Shown: in pieces, positions 9,834 to 58,482 of the stretch | Position numbering within the stretch: the first letter of the stretch is position 1 | Layout of the letters: each line of letters begins with the position of its first letter | DNA from: an uncultured Armatimonadetes bacterium | GTDB lineage: Bacteria; Armatimonadota; Hebobacteria; Hebobacterales; Hebobacteraceae | Length of the DNA stretch: 64,000 bases | Direction: 5' to 3' | NCBI GenBank assembly: GCA_963699135.1 | Contig: OY969415.1 | Location: forward strand, 3,833,577 to 3,897,576 | The notes under the pieces: generated by a model | The model's database searches: none | What the model saw: only the letters and a program-made list of their open reading frames with translations | What the model was told of the DNA's origin: nothing | Made by a program: the position numbers and the translations under genes

Positions 9834-9872
9834 GGGGCAGCGCCGCGCGCTGCCCCGTGGCAGTTTCGCCGT
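9834..9872. repeat. Hairpin repeat, family A, R orientation (TGTCATTGCGAGGGGC...GCCCCGTGGCA)
   Basis: Imperfect palindrome shared with at least 16 other copies in the window. Confidence 0.7.
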
Positions 9873-15325: not shown

Positions 15326-16233
15326 TACGCCCGCTCCGCAAAAAGATACGACTTCCGATGGAAGATGATGTGCCCCGCCACCGCGAACACGATCGCGATC
15401 GCGGCCGATCCGAGCACATACCACCCCATGGGATACTGCGCCTGCAACTGCGCCTGCAGCGCCGCCGCCGCCTCGGGGGTGCGAGTCGCGCCCGAGCTCA
15501 CCACGATCGGATTCCCCCCGCCCTCCAGCAGTCCGCTGCGATAGCCCAGCACGCACATCGCCACCGGGTCCAGCAGATAGAGCTGCTTGATCTGCGGCAG
15601 GTAGTCCGAGATGATCTGCGTCAGCCAGTTCTTCCCCGTCACCTGCTTGCCCAGGAAGTTGCCCAGCGGATACAGGATCGGTGTCAGGAAGAACCACAGC
15701 GACAGCAGGTTGCCGACGATGAACTTCACATCGGCATAGAACACGCTCCACGCCGCCAGCATCGACGACAGCCCATAGGCGAACACGGCGATCAACACCG
15801 TCGCGGGGATCACCAGCCAGTAGTGATAGTTGACATCCACCCGCCAGATCGCGAACAGCCCCAGCAGCACCAGGAAGGCGAGCGCAAGGTGCACCAGGTT
15901 GGAGATCAGCGCGGCGATCGGCAGAATGCAGCGGGGGAAATAGGCCTTCTTCACCAGCGCCAGCTCCGCCGTCACACAGGCGGTGCTGTCGAGCACGGTC
16001 TGGGAGAAGAACAGCCACGGCAGGAACCCGGTGATGAGGAACGCGGTGTAGTCCTTCTGCGGGTTCTCCATGATGATCTTGAAGACGAAATACCACACCC
16101 CGATCTGCATCAGGGGATTCAGCAGCGACCAGAAGAACCCCAGAATCGAGTTCTTATAGCGCACCCGGAGATTGCGTCGGACGAGGTTCCACAGCACCTC
16201 CCGATAGCGCCAAAGCTCGGCGATTTCCTTCAT
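15325..16233 (-). CDS. ABC-2 type transporter permease (Wzm-like)
   Basis: 302 aa with six hydrophobic segments. The N-terminus ...NLVRRNLRVRYKNSILGFFWSLLNPL is the characteristic ABC-2 permease motif. Confidence 0.8.
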   Translation of the reverse strand: MKEIAELWRYREVLWNLVRRNLRVRYKNSILGFFWSLLNPLMQIGVWYFVFKIIMENPQKDYTAFLITGFLPWLFFSQTVLDSTACVTAELALVKKAYFPRCILPIAALISNLVHLALAFLVLLGLFAIWRVDVNYHYWLVIPATVLIAVFAYGLSSMLAAWSVFYADVKFIVGNLLSLWFFLTPILYPLGNFLGKQVTGKNWLTQIISDYLPQIKQLYLLDPVAMCVLGYRSGLLEGGGNPIVVSSGATRTPEAAAALQAQLQAQYPMGWYVLGSAAIAIVFAVAGHIIFHRKSYLFAERA

Positions 16234-16319
16234 AATGTGGCCCGCAAACGCCTCCGCCGGCGATTATACAGGGCGCAGCAGTGGCAGTCAAAGCGGCGGT
16301 TGCTCCGTGGCGGCCTCGC

Positions 16320-16600
16320 CATTGCTGTCATCCCGAGCGACTCGCCACTCCGAGCAGAGCGAGAAGGCGAGTTATGCGAGGGATCAAGACCTGCGGAGCC
16401 GACCGGAGGAAGGCGACTCCCCATTCCCAGGGCAAGAGTCCCTAGGCTGCCATCGGCGGCCGGGATGGCGGCCTGCGAAGCCGGCTTAGCCACTCGTCTC
16501 CTGCCATGGCCTCTGCCGTTTCCGTCCGTAGGGGCGTGATTCATCACGCCCTCCCATCTGTCATTGCGAGGGGCGGCCGCTTCCGCCCCGTGGCAATCTC
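16320..16600. repeat. Composite repeat region in R orientation (TGATCC/CAGGATGACAGCAACGGC module, GGCGTGATTCATCACGCC module, family-A hairpin)
   Basis: Reverse-complement matches to modules present downstream of 21 kb in forward orientation. Confidence 0.55.
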
Positions 16601-16796
16601 GCAGTTCCCTCCGGCGCAGGTGGCCTCTGACTATCCGCGTCCATCACACCCCCACCCTTGTCCGCCCACCAACCACCATGTCCCACTGCCGGCCTTCTTC
16701 CCGGCCGGCCCTCCCACTACCATGGCTCCGGCGTGGGAAGGCGTCACGGAGTCACCCGACAGAGCCGACCCCGCCCAAGTGAGAAAGGGGATCAGA

Positions 16797-17102
16797 ATGA
16801 AGATGCTCATGCACGCCAGGATGCCTCACAAGGAGTTCAACGCCGCCCTCCGTGATGGCACCGCCGAGAAGAAGATGAAGCAGATCCTCGAGGCCACGAA
16901 GCCCGAAGCCGTCTACTTCACCGAGTGGAAAGGCCAGCGCAGCGCCCTCATGATCGTCAACCTGAATGACCCATCAGGGGTGCCCGCGCTCGCCGAGCCG
17001 TGGTTCCTGACCTTCAACGCAGACGTCGAGTTCCACATCGTCATGACCCCGGAAGACCTGGCCAAAGGTGGGCTGGAGGCTCTCGCGAAGAAGTGGGCCT
17101 AG
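16797..17102 (+). CDS. Small conserved hypothetical protein (about 100 aa; DUF3303-like by pattern, uncertain)
   Basis: ATG at 16797 preceded by AAAGGGG. The product is MKMLMHARMPHKEFNAAL...EAVYFTEWKGQRSALMIVNLND...PWFLTFNADVEFHIVMTPEDL. The upstream part of the track ORF lies in repeat DNA and is rejected. Confidence 0.5.
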   Translation: MKMLMHARMPHKEFNAALRDGTAEKKMKQILEATKPEAVYFTEWKGQRSALMIVNLNDPSGVPALAEPWFLTFNADVEFHIVMTPEDLAKGGLEALAKKWA

Positions 17103-17177
17103 CACAGGCCGATCGCACGCCCGAACGGAGCTGACGGGGAGCCACCGACTCCCCTCCCTGCCCACGCGCCGCCCCTC

Positions 17178-17224
17178 CCACTGTCATTGCGAGGGGCGGC
17201 CGCCTTCGCCCCGTGGCAATCCCG
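17178..17224. repeat. Hairpin repeat, family A, R orientation
   Basis: CTGTCATTGCGAGGGGCGGCCGCCTTCGCCCCGTGGCAATCC. Confidence 0.7.
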
Positions 17225-17306
17225 CCGTCGCCGTTCCGCTGCTGAAGCAGCGGAGACGCGCCGCGAAAAGCGGCACGAAAAGTGGCGTTTTCGCAAGAGT
17301 GCACCG

Positions 17307-17324
17307 ATGTTCCACGTGGAACAT
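17307..17324. promoter_or_regulatory. 18-bp perfect palindrome ATGTTCCACGTGGAACAT (candidate operator or recombination site)
   Basis: Exact inverted repeat in a 1.15-kb non-coding region. It is followed by repeated GCATTTCGGGG motifs. Confidence 0.4.
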
Positions 17325-18249
17325 TTCGGGGATTTCCGGGGTGTTCACATTGGCGGAATCGGAGGGTGGGGTGGGAGGCGAGGGAGTGAAGGGGAACTGA
17401 GGGGGCGGAGAGCGGGAATCGGCATAAGTAAGCAAGGCATTTGTAGTACAAGAGGCAAGCTGAAATGGGGTCGATTTCCGTACGCGGGCCTTTTGGCATC
17501 TGCCCTGGAAGGTGGCTAGATGGGCCCAGGAGAGGGAGGGCGAGTTAGGTCCGCGTCGCGAAATGCGCCTATCAGGGTTTTTTCGGGGGAGGGCCGAACT
17601 ATTTCACGTAGGGCAATCCAGGGGGGTCAGAGGGGAAGCTGGGGGCATTTCGGGGTCTGATGGCAGGTGCGCGCAGGGGTGCATAGGGTGCACGAAATGC
17701 GCGGTTCGAGGGGTGGGATTGGGCTGTTTCCGGGGGTTCGGGAGCGTGCATTTCGGGGCTGGAAATGGGCCCGGATCGGGGTGTACTAAGGGGTTAGTAC
17801 AGTGGGTTTGGGCATAGGCATAAGTGGAATGGGGGCGGGAGGACTTCGCTCACGCATCGGCTTCTGTGGCCATGCCCGCGACATGAGAGAAAGAGCTTGC
17901 TGCCTCTGCCCGGATGACTCTGGTTCCGAGTGCTACGGGAATGGAGGCAGTGCCCGCCGTCGATAGCCCGACACAGCGCGGTGTCACTCGCGGGCAGGTC
18001 AGGGCCGAGGATAGGCGGAAGTGATGGCGACATGAGGGATCGTCTGTGGCAGATCATTGGTTGCGCGGCCGTGCTGTCGGGAATCGTACCGCGTAGCGAA
18101 AGCTGCACTTCGGTCAAACTTGCTCCGTCTGACAGCGGCGGCTCCTTCGATCAGTGGCCCAGGACATGGGAGGCGGTGAGCCGCCGGTATGCGCAGCAGG
18201 AGGGCGGCGGGATGCGCGGCTTCCGCGGGCGGGACGATGGGGATGACGC

Positions 18250-19956
18250 ATGACACGGGAGGAGTTGCTTGAGCTGATCGCCAGCGTCCGCCGATATGAG
18301 AGCGAACTTGGCTCCGTAGAAGTGAAGTCTGCTCATCGGGGCACGCCGAAACGCCTCTTCGAACTCCTCTCTGCACTCGCCAACCGCACTGGTGGCGGCG
18401 CTATCCTCTTCGGGCTGGAGGAAAGCACGGACTACCGAGTCGTGGGAGTGGGCGATGCTAGCCGTCTACAAGAGGATGTTGCCAGCATTGCAGCCGAGAT
18501 GGAGCCCCCTCTTCGTCCGGAATTCACGGTTGACGAGGTGGAAGGCCACACTGTCGTCGCAGTGGAAGTGCCAGAGGTGCCCGTGCAGCAGCGCCCCTGC
18601 CACCTCAGGTCCTCTGGCCTACAGAAGGGCTCGTTCATCCGAGTCGGCAATAGCAACCGCTTGATGACCGACTACGAGATTCTTCGGATACATCAGCGCC
18701 CGCATCCAACCCACATATGACGGGGAGGTAGTGAGTGAAGCAACACTTCGAGGACCTAGACGACACGAAGCTGCTCGCGTATCTCAGCGCCCTGAGGCAG
18801 AGCCGCACGGACGCCTCTTACCTTGAGCAGCCGCGGGAACGGGTGCTAATGCAGTTCCGCATCGCAAAGGAAGACGAGGGTGTCCTGCGGCCGACTCTGG
18901 CTGGGTTGCTGGCCTTCGGGAGATATCCGCAGAGCTTCGAGCCGCAGCTCGTTATCACCTACATTCAGTTCTACGGCACGAGCGAAAATGAGAAGACGCC
19001 TCGGGGTGAGCGCTTCCTGGATAGCCGCAAGTTCGAGGGTGCACTGCCAGACCTCGTTGATGCCGCTGTGCGGCACGTCATGGCCAGCCTGCGCAAGAGC
19101 AGTCTGATAGAAGGACTCTACCGAAGAGATATACCAGAGTATCCTGAGGAGGCCGTCCGTGAGGCCGTGGTGAATGCAGTCGTTCACCGCGATTACAGCA
19201 ACTACGTGCGAGGCAGCTATGTCCAGATTCGGCTTTTCGCGGATCGCCTGGAGATCCAGAGCCCGGGTGGCCTCTACGGCAATGTGACCGAGGACACCCT
19301 CGAAATGGAGCACTCGACCCGGAATCGAGTCCTGATGCGATTCCTAGAGGACCTCCGAATCGCAGAGAATCGCGGCAGCGGCATCAGCGCTATGAACCGC
19401 GCCCTGCGCGATGCCAATCTGGAGCCACCCAGGTTCCAGGACAAGAGGAGTTCGTTCTGGGTCACTTTTCGAAGTCACTCGCTGATGAGTCCAGACACCA
19501 TCACGTGGCTCAACCAGTTTGCCGCGCAGCCTCTCAACGACCGCCAGCGACTCACGCTCGCCTACCTCCGTAGCAACGAACAGATCACCAACCCTATCTA
19601 CCGCCAGCTCAACCATGTGGACCCGCTGACCGCTACCAAGGAGCTGCAGGAGCTCGCCAGGACCGGGCTAGTAGAGCAGCACGAAGTGAGGAGATGGGCT
19701 CACTGACGTTCTGAATCCCTTACTTGTCCAGCCTGCGAGGGCAGAGACGCGGACCAATGAGGAGAAGGTTCTGGCATATGTTCAGGAGCATGGTTCCATT
19801 CGCAACCCGGAATGTCGGGATCTGCTGGGCCTACGCAGGCATCAAGCGCGCTTGCTCCTGAAGGGGCTCGTTGAGAAGCGTCTCTTAAGGCGTACGGGAG
19901 AGACGCGCGGCACTCGCTACGTGCTCCCCTATGCCCTGGCCCCGCGGGATAGCTGA
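18250..19956 (+). pseudogene. Fragmented COG2865-type regulator gene (AlbA_2/Schlafen-like N-domain + HATPase_c_4 + C-terminal wHTH), split into three frames
   Basis: Fragment 18250..18720 is an AlbA_2-like domain (frame 1). Fragment 18735..19706 is an HATPase_c_4-like domain (frame 3). Fragment 19732..19956 (frame 1, no start codon) reads EEKVLAYVQEHGSIRNPECRDLLGLRRHQARLLLKGLVEKRLLRRTGETRGTRYVL, the typical wHTH tail of this family. Confidence 0.65.
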
Positions 19957-19966
19957 TGCGCGGGGC

Positions 19967-20009
19967 TTTGCAAAAGTTTTGCAAAGTTTTGCAAAGATTT
20001 TGCAAAAGC
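19967..20009. repeat. Tandem repeat, 4 copies of TTTTGCAAA(A)G
   Basis: CTTTGCAAAAG TTTTGCAAAG TTTTGCAAAG ATTTTGCAAAAG. It is AT-rich in a 70% GC background and lies 230 bp upstream of the NHL lipoprotein gene. Confidence 0.8.
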
Positions 20010-50267: not shown

Positions 50268-50291
50268 TAGCCCGAGGAGGGAGAATTGGCA

Positions 50292-51515
50292 ATGACTACG
50301 ATAGGCGATTCGAAGCTGACAGAGGCCTCGCCGTTCTCAGGTGAAGATTGCTCAGCGCTGATTACGGTGAGCACCCCTGACTGCGAGACCCCGATTTGCC
50401 GCCTCGGCGGCGCCAGGGACATCCTCGGCGATCTGACCGTGCGTCAGCTTATCGAGCGAGTGGTTAGCCCTAATTCGCTTCTTTCGGTGCAAGTGCCGAT
50501 GACGCAGTTGGAGGCCGAGACGCCGACGGCGATGGCGATCAGTGAGTTGCTGACGGCGGGGTGCGAGGTCATCCTCGAAGGCGATGGCAGCGCGCCGGTT
50601 CCGCTGGACCAGCCCGCGGCGGCGATCACCGAGGCGCAAGTGGGCGCGCAGGGCAGCTCGTTCGTTAGTATCAGCCTGGAAGTGCGAGCGGCAAGCGACG
50701 GCGTGGACGCCGCACACGAGCGAAGGCAGGTCTCTGTCCCGGAGGTGGTTGAGGTGGAGGCGCCCGCGGCGCAGGTGCAGATGGCCGAAGAGGCGCCCGC
50801 CGGCAACCAAGGACAGGTCTCGGATCCCGAGGTGGCAGAAGTGGCCCCCGTCTCGGCCGCCCAGTCCGAGGAGACGCCCCCGGCGGAGCCGATGCCGGTG
50901 GAGAAGATCGAGGAGCTGTTCGCGGAGGTGTTGGCGGAGCCAGAGGAAGAGGTGGCTCCCGCGCCAGTGGCCGAAGTGAACCTGGCCCCCATGGCCCCCG
51001 CCTCGAACATCGTCGCGATCGTGGCTGAGACGCCGGCAAGGCAGCCTCGATCGACGGGGAACTCGGACACCCGCAAGGAGTACATCCGCAAGAGCGACTG
51101 GCTGCGAGCACAGTTCTTGCCAGAGGTGCAGGCGCTGGACTTCAGCGGGCTCTTCGTCGGCAACCTGGGCATGGGCGTACGGGAGGAGCAGGCGCGGCGG
51201 ACGGTGGTGTTGGCGGATCCTTCCCGCATCACCGAAGTGCTGCTGCGCGGCAACAGCTACCGGCGCACCGGCGATCACGCCAGGGCCCTGATCTGCTATC
51301 AGGAGCTGGTGGACATGGATTCGAGCAACGCCGACTTCCGGTTCCTGCTGGGCAAGACGCTGATCGAACTCGGTCAGTACGAGCAGGGGATCGAGGCGCT
51401 CAATCGGGCGAAGGAACTCGGGCACGAGGGAGCGCGCAAAGAGCTGGAGACGGTGAAGACATCCATACCAAAGGCGCGGAACCCGCTGGGCTTCCTCAAG
51501 TTCTGGAAACAATAA
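50292..51515 (+). CDS. Hypothetical protein with an acidic Pro/Ala/Glu-rich linker and a C-terminal TPR-like domain; probable ParA partner
   Basis: It lies 25 bp downstream of parA, with RBS GAGGAGGGAGAA. The C-terminus ...ALICYQELVDMDSSNADFRFLLGKTLIELGQYEQGIEALNRAKELG is TPR-like. A terminator follows. Confidence 0.55.
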   Translation: MTTIGDSKLTEASPFSGEDCSALITVSTPDCETPICRLGGARDILGDLTVRQLIERVVSPNSLLSVQVPMTQLEAETPTAMAISELLTAGCEVILEGDGSAPVPLDQPAAAITEAQVGAQGSSFVSISLEVRAASDGVDAAHERRQVSVPEVVEVEAPAAQVQMAEEAPAGNQGQVSDPEVAEVAPVSAAQSEETPPAEPMPVEKIEELFAEVLAEPEEEVAPAPVAEVNLAPMAPASNIVAIVAETPARQPRSTGNSDTRKEYIRKSDWLRAQFLPEVQALDFSGLFVGNLGMGVREEQARRTVVLADPSRITEVLLRGNSYRRTGDHARALICYQELVDMDSSNADFRFLLGKTLIELGQYEQGIEALNRAKELGHEGARKELETVKTSIPKARNPLGFLKFWKQ

Positions 51516-51548
51516 CGGCTTCAGGCCGTTCCTCAATAAAGCCCTCGA

Positions 51549-51590
51549 ACCAGAGATGGTTCGGGGGCTTTCGTTTTGGCCGAGGGAGGG
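51549..51590 (+). terminator. Rho-independent terminator after the parA operon
   Basis: AGCCCTCGAACC-AGAGAT-GGTTCGGGGGCT followed by TTCGTTTTGG. Confidence 0.5.
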
Positions 51591-51617: not shown

Positions 51618-52310
51618 ATGCAGAACGACGCGGCGCTGGTACTGTTCGCGCGCGGACCTTCGCCCGGCGCGACGAAGACGCGCCTGATCCCGGCGCTCGG
51701 CGCGGAGGGAGCGGCGGAGCTGTACCGGTGCTTCCTGCTCGACACGCTGGCGTCGGTCTCGCAGGTCCCGGCGGCGATGGTGGTGGCGGCGTCCGACCCG
51801 GATCAGATGGAAGCGGTGCGAGCGCTGGCGGCCGAGGGGTGCCCGCGAGCAGTGGTGACGGCGCAGTCCGGCGGTGACCTGGGAGCGCGGATGGCGCACG
51901 CGTTTCGGGAGGCATTCGCGCAGGGCTATCGGCGGGTGGTGATCCTGGGGACGGACCTACCGAGCTTGCCGCCGGAGCGGGTGGGGCAGGCGCTGGAGTT
52001 GCTGCGGGATCGGCGGCTGGTGCTGGGCCCATGTACTGACGGCGGCTACTACCTGATCGGGCTGAGCGCGCTGCTGCCTCAACTCTTCGAGGGGATAGGG
52101 TGGGGGGGCGACGCCGTGCTGGCGGACACGCAGCGCCGGGCGGAGTCGCTGGGGGTATCGGTCGCGCGGCTCGACCCCTGGTCGGATGTCGATACACCGC
52201 AGGACTTGGAGGCGCTGCGGGCGGATCTCGACGCGCGGTCGCGAGCCGGGGAACCGATCCCGTGCCCGCACACCTGGCGGTATCTGTGCCAGGAGATGAG
52301 GGGCCAGTAG
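51618..52310 (+). CDS. DUF2064-family protein (TIGR04282-like 'transferase 1' of the rSAM/selenodomain-associated pair; assignment from memory)
   Basis: ALVLFARGPSPGATKTRL...VILGTDLPSLP...GPCTDGGYYLIG...PWSDVDTPQDL are conserved DUF2064 motifs. The stop abuts the next start (TAGATG). Confidence 0.65.
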   Translation: MQNDAALVLFARGPSPGATKTRLIPALGAEGAAELYRCFLLDTLASVSQVPAAMVVAASDPDQMEAVRALAAEGCPRAVVTAQSGGDLGARMAHAFREAFAQGYRRVVILGTDLPSLPPERVGQALELLRDRRLVLGPCTDGGYYLIGLSALLPQLFEGIGWGGDAVLADTQRRAESLGVSVARLDPWSDVDTPQDLEALRADLDARSRAGEPIPCPHTWRYLCQEMRGQ

Positions 52311-53006
52311 ATGGGACCAAGCCCGCGCATCGCCGTCATCATCCCCGCGCTAAACGAGGAGCAGTCTATCGGCCGGGTGATCCAAGCGATCCCGGCGGAG
52401 TTGGACTGCGACATCGTGGTGGTGGATAACGGATCGAGCGATGGGACGGCGCGGGTGGCGGTGGAGCACGGAGGGCGGGTGGTGGGGGAGTCCGAGAGGG
52501 GCTATGGGGCGGCGTGTCTGGCCGGACTGGCGGCGCTGCGCGACCCGGAGGTGGTGGCGTTTCTGGACGCGGACTTCAGCGACGATCCGGCGCTACTGGG
52601 GGCGCTGGTTTCCCCGATTCTCGACGGGCAGACCGACTTCGTGATCGGCTCGCGGATGCTGGGGAAGCGGGAGCCGGGAGCGATGCCATTCCACACTGTC
52701 TTCGGGAACTGGCTAGCCGGGCGGATACTGACACACCTCTATCGCCAACCAGCAACGGACCTGGGGCCATTCCGGGCGGTTCGATACTCGGAGTTGCTGC
52801 GCCTGGGGATGCGCGACCGCGGATACGGGTGGACGATAGAGATGCAGGCGAAGGCGGCGCGGCTGGGGCTGAGGACAATCGAGGTCGCGGTTCCCTATCG
52901 GAAGCGGGTGGGGCGGTCGAAGATCAGTGGGTCGCTGGTGCCGTCGGTGAAGGCGGCAGTGGTGATCCTGAGCACGGCGTTTCGACTGCTGAGGTGGAGA
53001 GGCTAG
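52311..53006 (+). CDS. Glycosyltransferase family 2 (TIGR04283-like 'transferase 2'; partner of the DUF2064 protein)
   Basis: IAVIIPALNEEQSI...IVVVDNGSSDGT...FLDADFSDDP...FGNWLAGR, a DPM1-like GT2. Confidence 0.75.
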   Translation: MGPSPRIAVIIPALNEEQSIGRVIQAIPAELDCDIVVVDNGSSDGTARVAVEHGGRVVGESERGYGAACLAGLAALRDPEVVAFLDADFSDDPALLGALVSPILDGQTDFVIGSRMLGKREPGAMPFHTVFGNWLAGRILTHLYRQPATDLGPFRAVRYSELLRLGMRDRGYGWTIEMQAKAARLGLRTIEVAVPYRKRVGRSKISGSLVPSVKAAVVILSTAFRLLRWRG

Positions 53007-53102
53007 GGAGGGCTGTGTCGCGAGAAGTCTGCACTCGGCCGCGGCGGGCGACAGGGGTAGGCGCGGGAGCCACCTAACCTGGAGCGAGCAGGAGGTGGGG
53101 GC

Positions 53103-54185
53103 ATGCAGCAGGAGCGGTGTCTCGCGCGCCCGCGTCTCCACCAGGCGCGGTTCGATGTGCTCTCAGGCGGAAGGCTGTTGGTCGTCGTCGCATTGGTGGT
53201 GCTGTTCGGGGGGCGCAAGCTGGCGGAACTGACCCATCATCCGCTTCCCCCAGGGCTGGATGAGTTCACCGGACTGGCCATCTGGTGGATCTACTGGGGC
53301 AGCGTGGTCGGGTTCGGCCTGGTGGTGATGGCGCGGTGGCGGAATACCTACTTCCGGTGGCGGACCGTCAGCGCGATGGTGAGCCAGACGCTGTTTGGCA
53401 TCCTCCTGGGGGGCCCACTCGCGCCGGGGCTGCACGTGCCGGATTTCGCGCGCCGCTTGCACCTGACGTGGCCGCTTCACATGGGCGTGATCACACCATA
53501 CGCGCGGGAGCACGATCCACCGGCCTTCGTGTACGGGATCATCATCTCCCTCATCGCCTGGCCTGTCATCACGAGCTTCCTGGGGATGCGCTACTGCTCT
53601 TGGTTCTGCGCGTGCGGGAACCTGGCCGAGACGATGGGGGATGTGTACCGCGTGCGCGGGCCGAAGGGGCCGGCGCGCCAGTCGCTGGATAACATGGGCT
53701 ATGGCGTGCTGGCGCTGGCGGCGGTGGCGACGGCGCTGTTGTGGGTGCGGGTCGATGGCGGGTTCCGGTGGTACGACCTGGTGATCGCGTTCCTGATCGC
53801 GGACATCATCGGGATTGGCGCCTACCCGATACTCGGGAGTCGGGTGTGGTGCCGATTTTTCTGCCCGCTGCGGGCAACGCTGGGGTGGTTCTCGCGGCGG
53901 GGGCGGTTCGCCATCTACACCAGCCGGCAGAGGTGCATCGAGTGTGGGACCTGCAACCGGTACTGTGAGATGGGGATCGATATCCGGAGGAGGGCGAGGC
54001 AGGGGATTCCGCTGCGGGACACGGAGTGCGTGGCGTGCGGCGCGTGCATCGCGGTGTGCCCGCGATACGCGCTGAGCTTCCACCCATTCCCGTCGGCGGA
54101 GGAGGCGGTGAGGGCGAGGAACGCGCGGCGGTTTCGGGTGCGGTTCAAGCGGCAACTGGCGACGCCGCGGGAGGGGAGAGGATGA
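53103..54185 (+). CDS. Integral-membrane 4Fe-4S ferredoxin-type protein (NapH/MauN-like)
   Basis: Several TM helices, then CSWFCACGNL, CRFFCPLRA, CIECGTCNRYC and CVACGACIAVCP (iron-sulfur cluster motifs). Confidence 0.7.
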   Translation: MQQERCLARPRLHQARFDVLSGGRLLVVVALVVLFGGRKLAELTHHPLPPGLDEFTGLAIWWIYWGSVVGFGLVVMARWRNTYFRWRTVSAMVSQTLFGILLGGPLAPGLHVPDFARRLHLTWPLHMGVITPYAREHDPPAFVYGIIISLIAWPVITSFLGMRYCSWFCACGNLAETMGDVYRVRGPKGPARQSLDNMGYGVLALAAVATALLWVRVDGGFRWYDLVIAFLIADIIGIGAYPILGSRVWCRFFCPLRATLGWFSRRGRFAIYTSRQRCIECGTCNRYCEMGIDIRRRARQGIPLRDTECVACGACIAVCPRYALSFHPFPSAEEAVRARNARRFRVRFKRQLATPREGRG

Positions 54186-55410
54186 CGCCATACGTGATCA
54201 TTGGGAACGGCGTGGCGGCAGTGACGGCCGCGGAGGCGATCCGAGAGCGAGGGGATACGACACCGATCGTGGTCCTAACCGATCAGGAGTGCGCTTTCTA
54301 TTCTCGGCCATGCCTCTACTACATCATGTTGGGGCGGATCGAGTGGGGGGACGCGTGGGGGAGGCCGGATGATTTCTACTCGCGCAGCGGCATCGAACTC
54401 AGATGCAGCACTCACGTCACCGGGATCGACCCGGTGGGTCACACGGTGGAGGTGGAGGGGCAGGGCAAGCTACCGTACTCGCGTCTGCTGGTGGCGGCGG
54501 GGACGCGGGGGCGGATGCCGCCGTGGGCGCAGACGCCACTGCGCGGAGTGGTTGGCCTGAACACGCTGCTCGACGTGTCGGCAATGACCGACGCGGTGAG
54601 CAGCGGAGGCGGGGCGGTGGTGGTCGGGGGAGGCCTGACCTCGATCGAGATGGTGGAGGTGTGTCGGCGGTGGGGGATTCCGACGACCTTCATCATGCGG
54701 GGGGAGCGGTTCCTCGAATCGCAGCTCGACGGGGAGGAGGCGGAGATGATCCACCGGCGGCTGCGGGAGGCCGGGGTGGAGGTGGTGACGGGGGATGAGA
54801 TCGTGTCTCTGGAGGAGCGGGAGGGCCGCGTGTCGGGCGCGGCCACCAAGTCTGGACGGCGGATCGAGTGTGACATCGTAGGCTGTGCGGTGGGGGTGCT
54901 CCCGAACAAGGAACTGGTGGCGGAGGCGGGAGGGGAGGTGGCGGCGGGAGTGGTGGTGGACGATCAGATGCGGACGACGCTGCCGAACGTCTACGCGGCG
55001 GGGGATTGCGCGCAGGTGCGGCAGCCGGATGGCACGGTCGCGCCGCCGGAGATGCTGTGGTATGTGGCGGGCGATATGGGTCGGGTGGCGGGAGCGAACA
55101 TGGCCGGCGAAGGGGCGACGTACCGGCGTCGCGTGTTCCTGAATGTGTCCGAGTTCTGCGGGCTGGATTTCTGCGGGGTGGGAGAGATCCGACCCGGCCA
55201 AGCTGGGGTCGAAGAGACAAGGACTCGCGAGGCGAAGGGGAGCGCAGCGCGCGGCTGGTGACCCGCGAGGGGAGGCTGGTCGGCGCGTGCTTCGTGGGAG
55301 ACATCCGACTGTCGGATATCGCGTGGGGAGTGATTGAGAAGGGCGCGAGGATCGACGAGTTGCACTCGTCCCATCCATTCCGTTTGCTGGCGGAAAGGGG
55401 TTCGCCATGA
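54182..55410 (+). CDS. FAD-dependent pyridine nucleotide-disulfide oxidoreductase (NAD(P)H-dependent, nitrite-reductase/NADH-oxidase-like), one frameshift near 55200
   Basis: MTPYVIIGNGVAAVTAAEAI (FAD GxGxxA), AVVVGGGLTSIEM (NAD) and YAAGDCA. The C-terminal dimerisation domain ...GRLVGACFVGDIRLSDIAWGVIEKGARIDEL is in frame 55006..55410. The start overlaps the upstream stop, and the stop overlaps the next start (ATGA). Confidence 0.7.
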
Positions 55411-56231
55411 ATCCGCGTCACGTCGCTGCTGCTGGTGTCGCGCTCCTTGTGCTGGCGGCTCTCGCCGCTGGGGCCGGGCAAGCGCCGGAGGGCGGGGTGA
55501 GTGGTCACCCGGCCTGGGGAGCCTCCATTCATTGGAACTTCTATGAGACCATGCGCAAGAACGTGGTCGACGGGAGGCTCGACTACGGGAGGATGAAGCG
55601 AACGAGCAAGCCCGTGCTCGACAAGTACCTCCGGGATCTGGCGAAGGACGACCTGAAGGGCCCTTCGTGGAGGCCGTGGGACAGCAATGACAGGCTGGCG
55701 TTCTGGCTGAACGCGTACAACGCGTGCGTGATCTCGGGAATCATCGAGCGCTATCCGAGGATCAAGAGCGTGCAGGAGGTGAAGGGGTTCTTCGACGACA
55801 AGCGGTGGAAGGTGGCGGGGCAGGTGATGTCGCTGAACGAGATCGAGAAGAAGGTGCGCTCGTTCGGGGACCCGCGCATCCACTTCGTGTTGGTGTGCGG
55901 GGCGAAGAGTTGCCCGCCGCTGCGGCCGTACGCGATGATGGGCGATGAGCTGCAGGGGAAGCTGGAGGAGATCACGAGGAAGGTGGTCAATGACGAGCGG
56001 TACGTGCAGGTTGACGCGAAGTCGAAGCGGCTGCGGCTGACCCGCACCATGAGCTGGTATCAGCAGGATTTCGCGGACAAGTATGGGTCGCTGGAGAAGT
56101 TCCTGCTGCGCTATCTGAAGGAGCCGAAGCGCGCGGAGTTGGCAGCGGGGGGCTACACCACCGAATTCATGCCGTATGACTGGGCGCTGAACGACGCGAG
56201 CGGAGCCGCCACCAAAGGAACTGCGCGATGA
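55407..56231 (+). CDS. DUF547 domain-containing secreted protein
   Basis: Signal peptide MNPRHVAAAGVALLVLAALAAGAGQA. LAFWLNAYNACVISGII and HFVLVCGAKSCPPL are characteristic of DUF547. Confidence 0.7.
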   Translation: MNPRHVAAAGVALLVLAALAAGAGQAPEGGVSGHPAWGASIHWNFYETMRKNVVDGRLDYGRMKRTSKPVLDKYLRDLAKDDLKGPSWRPWDSNDRLAFWLNAYNACVISGIIERYPRIKSVQEVKGFFDDKRWKVAGQVMSLNEIEKKVRSFGDPRIHFVLVCGAKSCPPLRPYAMMGDELQGKLEEITRKVVNDERYVQVDAKSKRLRLTRTMSWYQQDFADKYGSLEKFLLRYLKEPKRAELAAGGYTTEFMPYDWALNDASGAATKGTAR

Positions 56232-57531
56232 GAAGAGCGTAGACCGGCAGATACCCGGCCCAGAGGAGGGTGTGGTGCACGGGGATGTTGCCGGGGTAGA
56301 GCCAGCGAATGTAGTATTGAAGCGAGAGGGTGAGGGTGAGGAGCAGCCATCCCGGGACGGACCACCAGCAGAGCAGGGGAGTGGTCCAGATGCCGTACCA
56401 GGGCATGGTGGGGGCGCCGAGGAGAAGCTGGGCGCAGATGGTGGTGAAGGTGGCGCCCATCAGCCACTCCAGGCCGGGCTGCTGACGCCAGACGAGCCAG
56501 GCGACGAGGGTGAGGAGGGCGATGGTCGTCAGGCCGCGGGCGATGGCGAAGTGGTACTCGGTGATCGGGGTCAGATGCCAGTTGATGAGGAAGAAGATGC
56601 TGCTGTTCGTCTCCCAATGGCCTATGAACTCGGAGAGGCCGGTGAAGAGGCGGCGGCCGATGCCGACGTAGGGCACGAGCAGGAGAAGGCAGGCGAGGCC
56701 GAACCAGGCCAGCGCTCTGACCCCACCGCGCTTGATGAAGAACGGCAGCGCGGGAAGCGCGAATCCCTTGGCCAGCACTGCTCCGGCAAAGGTGACGGCG
56801 GAGGCGGCGCGCACTTGGGAGTCGCGGCGGGCAGCGAACCAGAAGGCGAGCAGCAGCAGAAGCAACCCGAAGCAGTCCACATGCAGGCCGATGGCCGCTT
56901 CCGTGACCGGCAGGGGACACCAGGCATACCAGATGACGCGCTCGGGCGGGCGGCCGGTCTTGCGCAGCAGGGCGATGAGGAGCAGGACGCTCGCCAGATC
57001 GCAAGCCACGAAGACCCAGCGGAACAGCTCAGGGTCAGCGGGGTGGAGGCGGGCGATCCCGGCGAACAGCAACTCGGCCGACGGGGGGTAGATGGTCGGG
57101 ACTTCCTTGTGCCAGATCTGCTCCCAGCTCGCGTCTCGCAGGTGGCTTAGCTCGGGGGCGTTGGGGGGGTAGAGGTAGGGGTTGACGCCGGAGTTGCTGA
57201 CCCGGCCGTCCCAGAGGTAGCGCCAGTAGTCGGTGGTGAGGGGAAGGCGCGTTTCGAGGGCGACGATGCGGAGGCCGAGGGCGGCGACCACGATCCAGAC
57301 CAACCACCAGCGAGGCGCGTTCCTCACGCGCGCGACGATGAGCGCGGCGGGGAGATAGCAGAACCAGGCGAGCGCATAGGCGCGAACAAACGCGGACGCC
57401 CATTCGCCGTGGCCGGCAGTATGAAGGGCGGCGGCGGAGGCGAGGCCGAGGGCGATCAGCGCGAGGCCGGCCGCGAGCAGCGGCCAGCCTGCGCGGGCAC
57501 GCGAAGCAACACCCCCGGCCGCCGGCGACAT
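56167..57531 (-). CDS. DUF2029-family integral membrane protein (GT87/PMT-like polyprenol-sugar-dependent glycosyltransferase fold)
   Basis: 454 aa with about 12 TM helices. The N-terminal loop ...TTDYWRYLWDGR...GVNPYLYPP is typical of DUF2029 mannosyltransferase-like proteins. Convergent overlap with the DUF547 3' end. Confidence 0.6.
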   Translation of the reverse strand: MSPAAGGVASRARAGWPLLAAGLALIALGLASAAALHTAGHGEWASAFVRAYALAWFCYLPAALIVARVRNAPRWWLVWIVVAALGLRIVALETRLPLTTDYWRYLWDGRVSNSGVNPYLYPPNAPELSHLRDASWEQIWHKEVPTIYPPSAELLFAGIARLHPADPELFRWVFVACDLASVLLLIALLRKTGRPPERVIWYAWCPLPVTEAAIGLHVDCFGLLLLLLAFWFAARRDSQVRAASAVTFAGAVLAKGFALPALPFFIKRGGVRALAWFGLACLLLLVPYVGIGRRLFTGLSEFIGHWETNSSIFFLINWHLTPITEYHFAIARGLTTIALLTLVAWLVWRQQPGLEWLMGATFTTICAQLLLGAPTMPWYGIWTTPLLCWWSVPGWLLLTLTLSLQYYIRWLYPGNIPVHHTLLWAGYLPVYALLIAQFLWWRLRSRRSAPSHTA

Positions 57532-57532: not shown

Positions 57533-58390
57533 CTAGCGACTCGACCGCCCGCGTTCGGCCTTAGTCTTGAGCGGTTGGGCTGACCTGATGTAGAACTCGG
57601 TTTGGAGCTTGAGGGTGGTGGTATCCTTCTTCACCGCCTGGTAGACCTTCACCAGACCGCGGATGTGGGCCTCGAGCTGGAGCTGGCCCATCTCGGCGGT
57701 GGCGGTGGCGGGATCCCCCGCGAAGTGGTTGGGGTAGTTGGCGTACCAGAACATACCGGTGTGGAAGGGAACGCCGGCGAGGCGCTTCCGGGGCAGGCCG
57801 CTCTCGGAGGCGGCCTTCTCCATCTGCACCAGGTCGGGCCGAATGGCGAGCATGCCAGCGGTCTCGGGCTCACAGGCATGGCCTCCCCAGTCGGTCTTGC
57901 GCAGCTTTCGCACCTGCTCCATGAGCTTCGGGTCGGACTCCGGGTGGGCGATGTAGACGGCGTAGTCGCGGGGCGAGGAGAGCTGGGTGAGGCAGAAGAA
58001 GGGCAGCCAGTCGTTGTTGCCGCCGTGACCGTTCACGATGAGGATCTTCTCGAAGCCGTTGCGAGCGATGGTCTCGCAGACCGCCTGCAGCAGTTGGCTC
58101 AGCAGCTCGGGCGGGATGGTGACGCAGCCGGGCTGATGGCGGGCCTCGTAGATCTGGCCGAAGTAGTAGTGGGGGAAGACCACGGCGTACTCCCTCTGGG
58201 CAGCGCCGATGGAAGCGGCCCGGGCGGCCATGACGTCAGTGCCCAGCGGAAGATGGGGGCCGTGCTTCTCGATCACGCCGATGGGCAGGACGCAGACGCG
58301 CTTGGCGCGGGCCACGGCGCCGGGAAAATCGGAGGCGGTCAGCTCCTCCCACTGCACCGATAGGGACTTCGATGGGGATTTCGCTCTCAT
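57533..58390 (-). CDS. Creatininase (creatinine amidohydrolase) family protein
   Basis: VLPIGVIEKHGPHLPLGTD...IVNGHGGN...HACEPETA are metal-binding motifs of the creatininase family. Confidence 0.8.
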   Translation of the reverse strand: MRAKSPSKSLSVQWEELTASDFPGAVARAKRVCVLPIGVIEKHGPHLPLGTDVMAARAASIGAAQREYAVVFPHYYFGQIYEARHQPGCVTIPPELLSQLLQAVCETIARNGFEKILIVNGHGGNNDWLPFFCLTQLSSPRDYAVYIAHPESDPKLMEQVRKLRKTDWGGHACEPETAGMLAIRPDLVQMEKAASESGLPRKRLAGVPFHTGMFWYANYPNHFAGDPATATAEMGQLQLEAHIRGLVKVYQAVKKDTTTLKLQTEFYIRSAQPLKTKAERGRSSR

Positions 58391-58482
58391 GGTCACACTC
58401 CTTGACCCAGAGAGTTAGCGAAGGCGCGGGGGGATTCCTTTCGGGGGGGGAGGGAGGGAGGGAACGGCAACGGCGGCACGGC

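What the first reader, a model, noticed from the sequence alone, without database searches (positions are those of the whole stretch)
51618..57531. DUF2064 + GT2 'transferase pair' with 4Fe-4S membrane protein, FAD oxidoreductase, DUF547 and DUF2029
Translationally coupled genes (stop/start junctions at 52310/52311, 54182 and 55407). From memory of TIGRFAMs nomenclature, the DUF2064/GT2 pair corresponds to 'rSAM/selenodomain-associated transferases 1 and 2'. Here no radical-SAM gene is present. Instead the pair is followed by a NapH-like ferredoxin membrane protein, a disulfide-oxidoreductase-type flavoprotein, a secreted DUF547 protein with a CGAKSCPP motif, and a convergent GT87-like DUF2029 membrane transferase. 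This looks like an unusual redox-linked glycosyl-transfer or modification system.
Basis: partly seen in the sequence, partly recalled or inferred. Interest (0 to 1): 0.55.

Follow-up and report, generated by a model that had tools for sequence, protein, structure and literature searches.

The report
Lipid-linked sugar transfer cluster with redox genes
Six neighbouring genes in a probable Armatimonadota genome form a conserved but uncharacterised cluster, which most likely attaches an unusual sugar to the cell envelope through a lipid carrier and is linked to an electron-transfer pair of unknown target.

Summary
The six genes are real and the stop/start junctions are as described. Two points need correcting. 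The FAD oxidoreductase gene carries a 1-nt frameshift in this sequence, while a near-identical public contig has an intact 409-aa gene. The GT2 is not TIGR04283 (40.6 bits, cut-off 182); it is a small DPM1/MtxS-like polyprenyl-phosphate glycosyltransferase. DUF2064 is a true TIGR04282 member (208.8 bits, cut-off 134).

The order recurs in five further contigs (four complete, one cut after the fourth gene). The same gene families recur, in shuffled order, in Zixibacteria and Bacteroidota. Three fusions tie DUF2064, GT2 and GT87 together. In more distant relatives the cluster includes ArsS, the peroxidase-like TIGR04169 and a purine nucleoside phosphorylase, so the missing radical-SAM gene is a lineage variant.

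The closest characterised logic is the Mycobacterium tuberculosis methylthioxylose pathway: a nucleotide-sugar step, then MtxS, then a GT-C transferase. A Rhodococcus cluster of that layout (methylthioadenosine phosphorylase, epimerase, GT2, DUF2064) has homologues of the window's GT2 and DUF2064.

The reductase plus membrane polyferredoxin is a constant two-gene unit that usually occurs alone. What it reduces is unknown. DUF547 has an invariant CX4CP motif, no selenocysteine codon in 21 genes read, and a fold with no solved relative.

Verdict: new variant of a known kind; mechanism inferred.

The parts
51541..51578 (+). Terminator-like hairpin with a U-tract, lying between the upstream TPR gene and the operon
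   Evidence: RNA fold of 51530-51585 gives -28.9 kcal/mol, z -4.6, and 0 of 200 shuffles fold as well. The stem is followed by UUUCGUUUU. The simple consensus scan did not report it.
51618..52310 (+). DUF2064 / TIGR04282 protein (230 aa), CofC/MobA-like and probably a nucleotidyltransferase
   Evidence: TIGR04282 scores 208.8 bits (cut-off 134) and PF09837 has E 4.9e-33. The nearest solved sequences are 3cgx (E 5.6e-36) and FbiD 6bwg. It is fused to the GT2 in L005 and L092 and to a NUDIX domain in L090.
52311..53006 (+). Small GT2 (231 aa) of the DPM1/AglJ/MtxS-like polyprenyl-phosphate glycosyltransferase type; not TIGR04283
   Evidence: It fails TIGR04283 (40.6 bits, cut-off 182); its best NCBIfam model is AglJ at 114.7 bits, itself below that model's 325-bit cut-off. 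The only full-length match to a solved structure is Pyrococcus Dol-P-Man synthase 5mlz. It is 36.7% identical (E 3e-25) to the GT2 of a Rhodococcus cluster of methylthioadenosine phosphorylase, epimerase, GT2 and DUF2064.
53103..54185 (+). Membrane polyferredoxin (360 aa): 5-6 TM helices, CX3CXC and CX3CP motifs, and a C-terminal 2x[4Fe-4S] domain
   Evidence: Fer4 families match. NapH/MauN scores 51.9 bits, below the 213 cut-off. Thirteen cysteines are invariant across 12 homologues. Hydropathy and the positive-inside rule place all of them on the cytoplasmic side.
54182..55410 (+). NAD(P)H:ferredoxin-reductase-type flavoprotein (Pyr_redox_2 with a rubredoxin-reductase-like C-terminal domain), interrupted here by a 1-nt frameshift at about 55205-55255
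   Evidence: Pyr_redox_2 has E 8.6e-45. The orthologue alignment is split between two frames. A near-identical contig has an intact 409-aa gene. A 1-nt insertion restores 409 aa. The nearest solved sequences are NirB-family, AorC and ferredoxin reductases.
55407..56231 (+). Exported DUF547 protein (274 aa) with an invariant CX4CP motif
   Evidence: PF04784 has E 1.7e-22. There is one N-terminal hydrophobic segment, and several orthologues have lipobox-like N-termini. C169 and P170 are invariant and C164 is at least 90% conserved in 76 homologues; both cysteines are invariant in the 30-sequence alignment. The AlphaFold model has pLDDT 90.4 and no match among solved folds.
56167..57531 (-). GT87/DUF2029 GT-C membrane glycosyltransferase (454 aa), convergent with the operon and overlapping its 3' end by 65 nt
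   Evidence: PF09594 scores 27.8 bits (cut-off 25). About 10 TM helices are predicted, with a 76-residue loop carrying TDYWRYLWDGRV. It is 33% identical (E 6e-20) to the GT87 of the Nonomuraea cluster of epimerase, GT2, GT87 and DUF2064. It is fused to the GT2 in Miltoncostaea.

Best explanation
The cluster is a membrane-associated pathway that builds a lipid-linked sugar donor and transfers the sugar to an envelope acceptor. It follows the logic of the M. tuberculosis methylthioxylose (MTX) capping pathway.

Inferred steps:
1. The DUF2064/TIGR04282 protein, which has a CofC-like nucleotidyltransferase fold, converts a pentose-1-phosphate into a nucleotide sugar. The pentose is most likely 5-deoxy-5-substituted and released from a 5'-substituted 5'-deoxyadenosine. 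The source would be methylthioadenosine in this ArsS-less lineage, and the ArsS product in relatives.
2. The small MtxS/DPM1-like GT2 transfers the sugar to polyprenyl phosphate at the cytoplasmic face.
3. After flipping, the GT87 GT-C enzyme transfers it to an envelope glycan or lipid.
4. The flavoprotein takes electrons from NAD(P)H and reduces the [4Fe-4S] clusters of the membrane polyferredoxin. This pair serves a redox step tied to the pathway or its product, possibly involving the exported Cys-pair protein DUF547. This last step is the least supported.

Shown: gene content, family membership, conservation, the fusions, and homology to actinobacterial clusters with the MTX layout. Inferred: all enzyme activities, the identity of the sugar, and the direction and target of electron flow.
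For: Family level:
- TIGR04282 membership is met, and the nearest solved sequences are nucleotidyltransferase-like.
- The GT2 aligns over its full length only with Dol-P-Man synthase among solved structures.
- GT87 is a family named from GT-C enzymes that use polyprenyl-phosphate sugars (the donor type is established knowledge).

Functional linkage:
- DUF2064-GT2 is a single fused protein in L005 and in L092/L093. It aligns colinearly to window 51636-53000 at 51% identity.
- GT87-GT2 is fused in Miltoncostaea, where DUF2064 is fused to NUDIX, a domain that acts on nucleoside-diphosphate-X compounds.

Conservation:
- The order recurs in L001/L002, L009 and the Logan contig, and in L096 as far as that contig runs.
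- The same families recur in shuffled order in Zixibacteria L008, Hymenobacter L073/L034 and other Bacteroidota, and metagenome loci L141 and L174.
- In 40 full-flank loci anchored on the polyferredoxin, the pairs co-occur: GT2/GT87 p = 1.4e-4, DUF547/GT2 p = 1.4e-4, DUF2064/ArsS p = 5e-5 (not corrected for phylogeny).

Link to 5'-substituted adenosine chemistry:
- ArsS (TIGR04167), TIGR04169 and a purine-nucleoside phosphorylase sit next to DUF2064 in related clusters.
- A Rhodococcus plasmid carries S-methyl-5'-thioadenosine phosphorylase, epimerase, GT2 and DUF2064 in a row. The window's GT2 is 36.7% and its DUF2064 35% identical to those proteins.
- Nonomuraea has epimerase, GT2, GT87 and DUF2064 together.
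- In the literature, MtxS (Rv0539) makes decaprenyl-P-MTX and MtxT (Rv0541c) transfers MTX to lipoarabinomannan (LAM) caps (PMC8780516, PMC12088412). ArsS adenosylates arsenic (PMC12159101).

Redox pair:
- The flavoprotein lies directly upstream of the polyferredoxin in 69 of 80 genome loci.
- Its nearest solved relatives are ferredoxin and rubredoxin reductases and AorC.
- Plant class IV glutaredoxins are GRX-DEP-DUF547 fusions (PMC13621322).
Against: - No enzyme activity was tested.
- The window cluster has no methylthioadenosine or purine nucleoside phosphorylase, no epimerase and no GtrA-like flippase nearby, so the identity of the sugar is a guess.
- Whether M. tuberculosis MtxT is related to GT87 was not tested. 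The 453-aa hypothetical protein of the Rhodococcus cluster shows no similarity to the window's GT87.
- That Rv0540 is a DUF2064 protein rests on my memory plus the Rhodococcus gene order. The original paper (Angala 2017) is not in the held library.
- About two thirds of polyferredoxin loci carry none of the glycosyl genes within 10 kb. Only 3 of 80 DUF2064-anchored loci have the redox pair. The redox pair therefore has a life of its own.
- All conserved cysteines of the polyferredoxin are predicted to face the cytoplasm. That argues against direct electron delivery to the exported DUF547.
- The flavoprotein gene is frameshifted in this sequence.
Confidence: 0.45

Rival explanations
1. It is the accessory part of an ArsS-dependent organoarsenical (arsenosugar-type) pathway. 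ArsS, TIGR04169 and perhaps TIGR04283 are encoded elsewhere in the 4.66-Mb genome. The cluster processes 5'-deoxy-5'-dimethylarsinoyl-adenosine into an envelope or lipid arsenosugar conjugate. The reductase/polyferredoxin pair supplies the electron that the radical-SAM cluster needs.
For: - NCBIfam names TIGR04282 an 'arsenosugar biosynthesis glycosyltransferase'.
- In the closest relatives with a different layout, the operon reads polyferredoxin, reductase, ArsS, DUF2064-GT2 fusion (L005 and L092/L093).
- ArsS lies within 1 kb of the redox pair in L027, L052 and L064.
- ArsS is present in 10 of 80 DUF2064-anchored loci.
Against: - No ArsS lies in the 64-kb window, nor within 10 kb in L001 or L009, which share the window's gene order; the Logan contig and L096 are too short to tell.
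- None of the top 120 ArsS relatives lies on the source contig, although that test is inconclusive.
- Several Bacteroidota loci (for example L017, L031, L059, L074) have the redox pair with GT2, GT87 and, in most, DUF547, but neither DUF2064 nor ArsS within 10 kb.
- Most ArsS/DUF2064 loci lack the redox pair.
- A membrane-embedded polyferredoxin is an odd reductant for a soluble radical-SAM enzyme.
Confidence: 0.2
2. It is an ordinary lipid-linked hexose glycosylation unit, comparable to GtrB or Ppm1 working with a GT-C enzyme. It merely sits beside an unrelated, self-sufficient redox operon (reductase and polyferredoxin) and a periplasmic DUF547 protein. The six genes are not one system.
For: - The redox pair occurs without any of the other genes in about two thirds of the full-flank loci.
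- The GT2's best curated matches are hexose-transferring enzymes (AglJ, dolichyl-phosphate hexose transferase, GpgS).
- A 96-nt gap separates the GT2 from the polyferredoxin gene.
- Gene order conserved among close relatives can reflect plain synteny.
Against: - The association recurs with shuffled order in Armatimonadota, Zixibacteria, Bacteroidota and unbinned metagenome contigs.
- ArsS sits between the redox pair and the DUF2064-GT2 fusion inside one operon in L005 and L092.
- DUF547 co-occurs with the GT2 in 6 of the 7 full-flank loci that have DUF547.
- The DUF2064 partner and the fusions point to a dedicated nucleotide sugar, not a housekeeping one.
Confidence: 0.15
3. The flavoprotein, polyferredoxin and DUF547 form an envelope-directed reductant system. 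It would be analogous in role to DsbD/CcdA with thioredoxin-like proteins, or to MsrPQ. It would keep an oxidisable group reduced, such as a thioether or sulfoxide, an arsinoyl group, or a thiol. The glycosyl genes install that group on the cell surface.
For: - DUF547 is exported and has an invariant Cys pair.
- GRX-DUF547 fusions exist in plants (PMC13621322).
- Lipoprotein-type MsrB and MsrA genes lie directly upstream of DUF547, reductase and polyferredoxin in L023 and L028.
- DUF547 also neighbours MauE/DoxX redox membrane proteins and an FAD oxidoreductase on the Roseomonas plasmid.
- AhpC/thioredoxin-like genes flank L092 and L007.
Against: - The Msr genes were found in only 2 related loci among all loci held at that point.
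- The FeS clusters and Cys motifs of the polyferredoxin are predicted to be cytoplasmic, with no evident route across the membrane.
- The DUF547 fold gives no clue.
- No thioredoxin-fold partner is present in the window cluster.
Confidence: 0.1

Closest known systems
M. tuberculosis methylthioxylose (MTX) capping pathway: MtxS (Rv0539), the adjacent Rv0540, and MtxT (Rv0541c), with MTA phosphorylase Rv0535 and epimerase Rv0536 (Angala et al. 2017)
   Same: - Both have a small soluble-type GT2 that loads a pentose on polyprenyl phosphate, next to a DUF2064-type protein and a GT-C transferase gene.
- A Rhodococcus plasmid cluster with the same layout (methylthioadenosine phosphorylase, epimerase, GT2, DUF2064) has a GT2 36.7% and a DUF2064 35% identical to the window proteins.
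- The Nonomuraea version uses a GT87 homologous to the window's.
   Different: - The window cluster has no methylthioadenosine phosphorylase and no epimerase.
- It adds a ferredoxin reductase, a membrane polyferredoxin and DUF547, which my recollection of the mycobacterial cluster does not include.
- The organism is not an actinomycete and has no lipoarabinomannan.
ArsS / 'rSAM-selenodomain' arsenosugar system (TIGR04167, TIGR04282, TIGR04283, TIGR04169)
   Same: - DUF2064 is a TIGR04282 member.
- Orthologous clusters in relatives contain ArsS (L005, L008, L092) and, in L008, TIGR04169.
   Different: - The window has no ArsS, no TIGR04169 and no TIGR04283.
- Its GT2 belongs to a different subfamily.
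- GT87, the redox pair and DUF547 are not part of the system as its family names describe it.
Three-component lipid-linked glycosylation (GtrA/GtrB/Gtr-type; ArnC/ArnT; Ppm1/PimE)
   Same: A GT2 polyprenyl-phosphate sugar synthase works with a GT-C transferase at the outer face. The window's GT2 aligns over its full length with Dol-P-Man synthase, and GT87 is the family of PimE.
   Different: - A dedicated nucleotidyltransferase-like DUF2064 is present, and in relatives it is fused to the GT2.
- There is no GtrA-like flippase gene in the cluster.
- Redox genes are attached.
NapH/MauN/CcoG-type membrane polyferredoxins, and ferredoxin-reductase plus ferredoxin pairs (for example AorC/AorA, or rubredoxin reductase with rubredoxin)
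   Same: - Multi-TM protein with CX3CP-type motifs and a cytoplasmic 2x[4Fe-4S] domain.
- The partner flavoprotein resembles NAD(P)H:ferredoxin reductases.
   Different: - It scores far below the NapH/MauN cut-off (51.9 bits against 213).
- The first motif is CX3CXC rather than CX3CP.
- Its partner is a cytoplasmic flavoprotein, not a periplasmic NapG-type ferredoxin.
- The terminal acceptor is unknown.

Membership tests
TIGR04282 (DUF2064; 'rSAM/selenodomain-associated transferase 1', now named arsenosugar biosynthesis glycosyltransferase) | Whole-protein HMM score above the curated cut-off (134 bits) | tested here: met
   208.8 bits over profile positions 1-189 of 189. PF09837 has E 4.9e-33.
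TIGR04283 ('transferase 2') | Whole-protein HMM score above the curated cut-off (182 bits) | tested here: not met
   40.6 bits, over profile positions 1-85 of 221 only. Orthologues in L005, L008 and L007 score 50 bits or less. A true member in L023 scores 221 bits.
ArsS (TIGR04167) arsenosugar system | A radical SAM / DUF3641 ArsS gene in the cluster or the genome | tested here: not met
   There is no ArsS-like sequence in the 64-kb window. Presence elsewhere in the genome could not be tested; the search was inconclusive. ArsS is present in the relatives L005, L008 and L092.
ArsS (TIGR04167) arsenosugar system | An associated AhpD-like TIGR04169 gene | tested here: not met
   The ORFs in and next to the window cluster were scanned and none matched it. 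It is present in L008 (172.8 bits, cut-off 120).
MTX-type pathway (MtxS/MtxT) | A small GT2 homologous to the GT2 of a cluster of methylthioadenosine phosphorylase, epimerase, GT2 and DUF2064 | tested here: met
   36.7% identity over 210 aa, E 3e-25, to the Rhodococcus plasmid GT2, and 43.5% to the Nonomuraea GT2. Identity to M. tuberculosis Rv0539 itself was not tested.
MTX-type pathway (MtxS/MtxT) | Methylthioadenosine phosphorylase and a sugar-nucleotide epimerase in the cluster | tested here: not met
   Neither lies near the cluster. The only epimerase-like gene in the window is at 3456-4481, about 47 kb away, in an exopolysaccharide region.
MTX-type pathway (MtxS/MtxT) | A GT-C transferase homologous to MtxT (Rv0541c) | not testable with these tools
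   A GT-C (GT87) gene is present and convergent, but no Rv0541c sequence was available. The Rhodococcus 453-aa hypothetical protein shows no similarity, while the Nonomuraea GT87 does.
GT87 (PF09594, DUF2029) | Pfam score above the gathering threshold (25 bits), and a multi-TM GT-C architecture | tested here: met
   27.8 bits, which is marginal. About 10 TM segments are predicted, with a large first external loop. Orthologues also hit MptA_B_family.
NapH/MauN ferredoxin-type membrane proteins (TIGR02163) | HMM score above the cut-off (213 bits) | tested here: not met
   51.9 bits. The resemblance lies in architecture only.
DUF547 (PF04784) | Pfam score above the gathering threshold (27 bits) | tested here: met
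   80.2 bits. C169 and P170 of the CX4CP motif are invariant in 76 homologues and C164 is at least 90% conserved.
   All 21 genes read at DNA level have Cys codons at both positions. This is a small sample.

The most novel reading that the evidence does not exclude
The cluster installs a redox-active 5-deoxy-5-thio or 5-arsino pentose on the cell surface, and the attached genes recycle its oxidised form. Electrons would flow from NAD(P)H through the flavoprotein and the membrane polyferredoxin to the exported Cys-pair protein DUF547. The result would be a renewable, sugar-borne antioxidant or detoxification shield on the envelope. It would be widespread outside Actinobacteria and cyanobacteria, and it would give first functions to DUF2064, DUF547 and this polyferredoxin family.
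Probability: 0.1. Interest if true: 0.8.

Novelty: new variant of a known kind. Interest (0 to 1): 0.55.

Why it matters
If the model holds, three things follow.

- Methylthioxylose-like and arsenosugar-like pentoses would be two faces of one widespread pathway. That pathway would recycle products of S-adenosylmethionine chemistry into envelope glycoconjugates. Methylthioxylose is so far treated as an oddity of the M. tuberculosis envelope, and arsenosugars as mainly a cyanobacterial and algal product.
- Several 'domain of unknown function' families would gain testable roles: DUF2064 as a pentose-1-phosphate nucleotidyltransferase, and DUF547 as an exported redox partner.
- A widespread pair would be defined: a ferredoxin reductase plus a membrane polyferredoxin. 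At least 579 relatives of the polyferredoxin were seen in species-representative genomes of many phyla, and no paper retrieved in the 7 literature searches run here describes the pair.

It also shows that the public name 'arsenosugar biosynthesis glycosyltransferase' is probably too narrow for TIGR04282.

Tried and rejected
- **Selenocysteine in DUF547.** All 21 DNA-level copies have Cys codons at both positions. Rejected for this sample.
- **Fold of DUF547.** The model is confident (pLDDT 90.4), but the best match among solved structures has E 0.75 and TM about 0.2. No functional clue.
- **ArsS elsewhere in the source genome.** A homologue search with the L005 ArsS returned at least 7,999 relatives. 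None of the top 120 lay on the 4,657,420-bp contig. Inconclusive, not negative.
- **TIGR04283 elsewhere in the window.** The GT2 genes at 0.5-8.7 kb are exopolysaccharide-type enzymes, all 48 bits or less.
- **NapH membership** fails.
- **Riboswitch or other RNA upstream of the operon.** Rfam finds only two tRNAs in the window.
- **Promoter and terminator consensus scan.** Nothing above chance. A hairpin seen by eye was then confirmed by folding.
- **Literature.** 'DUF2064' returns 0 papers. 'DUF547' returns 28 papers; the 15 listed are mainly plant studies, none on a bacterial DUF547 function. The primary MTX paper (PMC5357196) is not held, so details of Rv0535, Rv0536 and Rv0540 rest on my memory.
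- **Rhodococcus 453-aa hypothetical as a GT87 relative.** No similarity.
- **Replication origin at the GC-skew switch near 16-18 kb.** No excess of DnaA boxes. The switch coincides with a divergent gene junction.
- **Creatininase, TPR and ParA neighbours.** Conserved only in close relatives (L001, L009; creatininase and TPR also on the Logan contig) and absent from L005, L008 and L092. Treated as lineage synteny, not as part of the system.

Full report
**1. What is in the sequence**

The window is 65-70% G+C. Its nearest named protein relatives come from Armatimonadota MAGs. Exact look-ups place the cluster proteins on one 4,657,420-bp NCBI contig.

Between 51.6 and 57.5 kb there are five co-directional genes and one convergent gene:

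- DUF2064, 51618-52310.
- GT2, 52311-53006.
- A 360-aa 4Fe-4S membrane protein, 53103-54185.
- A Pyr_redox_2 flavoprotein starting at 54182.
- DUF547, 55407-56231.
- GT87, 56167-57531 on the minus strand.

TAG is followed directly by ATG at 52310/52311. There are ATGA overlaps at 54182 and at 55407. A strong hairpin with a U-tract at 51541-51578 (-28.9 kcal/mol, z -4.6) separates the cluster from the upstream TPR gene. GT87 overlaps the DUF547 3' end by 65 nt.

**2.

The flavoprotein frame that starts at 54182 ends at 55261. The conserved C-terminal segment (...RLVTREGRLVGACFVGD...) and the 55407 junction lie in another frame.

- An orthologue aligns to 54188-55213 and then to 55246-55383 in a different frame.
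- One inserted base anywhere in about 55205-55249 restores a 409-aa protein.
- A public Logan contig encodes the identical DUF547 protein. It has an intact 409-aa gene and is exactly 1 nt longer between the DUF2064 and DUF547 starts.

A second apparent split gene lies at 18250-19706, so assembly indel errors are a plausible cause. This was not proven.

**3. Family assignments**

- DUF2064 is a TIGR04282 member (208.8 bits, cut-off 134). It resembles 3cgx and the guanylyltransferase FbiD.
- The GT2 is not TIGR04283 (40.6 bits, cut-off 182). Its best models are AglJ and dolichyl-phosphate hexose transferase, both below their cut-offs. Its only full-length match among solved structures is Pyrococcus Dol-P-Man synthase.
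- The membrane protein resembles NapH in architecture only (51.9 bits, cut-off 213). It has 13 invariant cysteines: CX3CXC, CX3CP and two CX2CX2CX3C groups. A hydropathy scan finds five TM segments, with a sixth, weaker one apparent by eye, and all these cysteines fall on the cytoplasmic side.
- The flavoprotein is closest to NirB-N-terminal, PadH and AorC proteins and to ferredoxin and rubredoxin reductases. It has no conserved N-terminal redox cysteine across 69 family members.
- DUF547 has a signal-peptide-like N-terminus. Its PRIHFxLVCxAxSCP motif is conserved: the second Cys and the Pro are invariant in 76 homologues and the first Cys is at least 90% conserved there.
- GT87 passes the Pfam threshold marginally (27.8 bits, cut-off 25). 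It has about 10 TM helices.

**4. Conservation**

The same gene order recurs in five further contigs. L001/L002, L009 and the Logan contig carry all six genes; L096 carries the first four and then ends.

A second Armatimonadota-type layout occurs in L005 and L092/L093. It reads polyferredoxin, flavoprotein, ArsS, a DUF2064-GT2 fusion protein, then a convergent GT87. L005 also has DUF547 beside it. The fusion aligns colinearly with window 51636-53000 at 51% identity.

A Zixibacteria genome (L008) has, in one row: flavoprotein, polyferredoxin, DUF547, GT2, GT87, a large GT2, DUF2064, TIGR04169 and ArsS. Hymenobacter loci carry all these modules within about 14 kb, plus a rhodanese (NF045521) and an FGE-sulfatase-like gene.

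**5. Two anchored surveys**

*Genome survey, anchored on the polyferredoxin.* At least 579 relatives were found in species-representative genomes of many phyla, and 80 loci were fetched.

- The flavoprotein gene lies directly upstream in 69 of the 80.
- Among the 40 loci with at least 7 kb on both sides: 9 have the small GT2, 9 the large GT2, 7 GT87, 7 DUF547, 5 DUF2064 and 4 ArsS.
- 26 of those 40 have none of them.
- Co-occurrence within this set is strong: GT2/GT87 p = 1.4e-4, DUF547/GT2 p = 1.4e-4, DUF2064/ArsS p = 5e-5. These values are not corrected for relatedness.
- De novo clustering of all ORFs found no other common partner.

*Metagenome survey, anchored on DUF2064*. Among 80 loci:

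- The usual neighbour is a TIGR04283-like GT2 (35 loci).
- ArsS is present in 10, the window's GT2 type in 7, DUF547 in 5, GT87 in 4 and the redox pair in 3.
- L174 carries nearly everything: ArsS, DUF2064, purine nucleoside phosphorylase, DUF547, TIGR04283, flavoprotein, polyferredoxin, small GT2 and large GT2.

Together these surveys suggest three modules that combine:

- a constant redox pair;
- a glycosyl module (small GT2, large GT2, GT87, often DUF547);
- an ArsS module (ArsS, TIGR04282, TIGR04169, sometimes a nucleoside phosphorylase and TIGR04283).

The window has the redox pair, part of the glycosyl module, and only DUF2064 from the ArsS module.

**6. The link to a characterised system**

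The literature gives three relevant facts.

- MtxS (Rv0539) makes decaprenyl-phospho-MTX.
- The GT-C enzyme MtxT (Rv0541c) transfers 5-deoxy-5-methylthio-xylofuranose to the mannose caps of lipoarabinomannan (PMC8780516; PMC12088412).
- ArsS adenosylates arsenic in arsenosugar synthesis (PMC12159101).

From my memory of Angala et al. 2017, which is not held in the library, the model runs: methylthioadenosine to methylthioribose-1-P, then a nucleotide sugar, then 3-epimerisation, then decaprenyl-P-MTX. The gene between mtxS and mtxT (Rv0540) would be the DUF2064-type protein.

Tool results support this recollection indirectly.

- A Rhodococcus plasmid (order Mycobacteriales) carries, in a row, S-methyl-5'-thioadenosine phosphorylase, an NAD-dependent epimerase, a GT2 and a DUF2064 protein. 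The window's GT2 is 36.7% identical (E 3e-25) and its DUF2064 35% identical to these.
- Nonomuraea has epimerase, GT2, GT87 and DUF2064 together. Its GT87 is 33% identical (E 6e-20) to the window's over the region that carries the TDxxRYxWDGRV motif.
- Miltoncostaea has a GT87-GT2 fusion followed by a DUF2064-NUDIX fusion, next to AhpD-like and radical-SAM genes and selABD.
- A purine nucleoside phosphorylase sits beside DUF2064 in L023, L165 and L174.

**7. Best reading**

The DUF2064, small GT2 and GT87 trio is a unit. It activates a sugar-1-phosphate, loads the sugar on polyprenyl phosphate, and transfers it outside the membrane.

The recurrent company of ArsS, methylthioadenosine or purine nucleoside phosphorylases and NUDIX points to one kind of sugar: a 5-deoxy-5-substituted pentose released from a 5'-substituted 5'-deoxyadenosine. 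In this ArsS-less lineage methylthioadenosine is the most economical source. That assignment is inference.

The flavoprotein and polyferredoxin look like an NAD(P)H-driven electron wire anchored at the cytoplasmic face of the membrane. Their acceptor is unknown. They associate more often with the glycosyl genes and DUF547 than with ArsS. This weakens the idea that they exist only to reduce ArsS.

DUF547 is exported and has a conserved Cys pair. It is fused to a glutaredoxin domain in plants (PMC13621322). In other bacteria it neighbours MauE/DoxX proteins, an FAD oxidoreductase, or lipoprotein-type MsrA/MsrB. A redox role is therefore plausible. However, its fold has no solved relative, and no route for electrons across the membrane is evident.

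**8. Limits**

- Nothing was tested biochemically.
- The co-occurrence counts come from the 'best 80' hits of capped scans, from flanks of 10 kb at most, and from tblastn thresholds I chose. They are not corrected for phylogeny.
- The rest of the source genome could not be searched. The ArsS search is inconclusive.
- The M. tuberculosis proteins themselves were not available for alignment.

**9. Verdict**

It is partly wrong on three points: the GT2 is not TIGR04283, the membrane protein is not a NapH member, and there is no selenocysteine codon in DUF547.

The cluster is a new variant of known kinds, namely MTX-type lipid-linked pentose transfer and ArsS-associated gene sets. The added redox pair and DUF547 appear in none of the papers retrieved in the 7 literature searches run here.

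Noticed in passing
window 55205-55255: There is a 1-nt frameshift in the flavoprotein gene. A near-identical public contig (Logan ERR15459707) has an intact 409-aa gene and is 1 nt longer over this interval. The cause could be an assembly error or a strain-specific pseudogene.
   Followed up: partly
window 18250-18720 and 18735-19706 (+): Two adjacent ORFs of 156 and 323 aa, in different frames, look by eye like the two halves of one gene for a regulator-like protein. That would be a second probable frameshift in the window. It was not tested with HMMs.
   Followed up: no
window 52308-52313: DUF2064 and GT2 are in the same reading frame, separated only by TAG and then ATG. In L005 and L092/L093 the orthologues form one fused 462-aa protein. 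In L001 and L009 the two genes overlap in different frames. The pair has therefore been split or joined during evolution.
   Followed up: partly
window 51541-51578: A strong hairpin (-28.9 kcal/mol, z -4.6) followed by UUUCGUUUU lies after the TPR gene. It is a likely intrinsic terminator that the consensus scan missed.
   Followed up: yes
window 14000-20000: GC skew flips from about -0.2 to +0.2, and G+C dips to 0.60, at about 16-18 kb. This coincides with a divergent junction: minus-strand genes lie before 16.2 kb and plus-strand genes after 18.2 kb. No ORF of 200 aa or more lies wholly between about 16.5 and 18.7 kb. There is no excess of DnaA boxes.
   Followed up: partly
window 553-10291 (-): This is a generic exopolysaccharide-type gene block: several GT2 enzymes (EpsD-like and MftF-like hits below cut-off), a GalE-like epimerase at 3456-4481, and a CsaB-like pyruvyl transferase at 8657-10291. 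None is TIGR04283.
   Followed up: partly
window 57533-58396 (-), 50286-51515 (+): A creatininase-family gene (MftE-like, below cut-off) and a TPR protein with a long acidic, proline-rich region flank the cluster. L001, L009 and the Logan contig share both, and L001 and L009 also have a ParA-like gene upstream. These neighbours are absent from the L005, L008 and L092 clusters.
   Followed up: partly
L068:6129-7010 and 9 other Bacteroidota loci: A 293-aa lipoprotein-like ORF with no Pfam hit recurs in 10 loci of this gene neighbourhood. In L068 it lies between the small GT2 and GT87.
   Followed up: no
L023:6220-7424 and L028:6058-7249: MsrB and MsrA genes with lipoprotein-type signal sequences lie directly upstream of DUF547, the flavoprotein and the polyferredoxin. 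This hints at an envelope sulfoxide-reduction context, but it was seen in only two related loci.
   Followed up: partly
L091 (Roseomonas plasmid NZ_CP061178.1): TIGR04282 is followed by DUF547, two radical-SAM genes, a phosphonate-type ABC transporter and a metallophosphoesterase. A second DUF547 lies next to MauE/DoxX, a chalcone-isomerase-family gene and an FAD oxidoreductase.
   Followed up: no
L010-L089 (genome scan): The flavoprotein plus polyferredoxin gene pair stands alone, with no recurrent neighbour, in about two thirds of the loci. It spans many phyla, including Bacteroidota, Dadabacteria, Gemmatimonadota, Acidobacteriota, Ignavibacteria, Thermodesulfobacteriota and Planctomycetota. 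It appears to be a widespread two-gene unit that the 7 literature searches run here did not turn up.
   Followed up: partly
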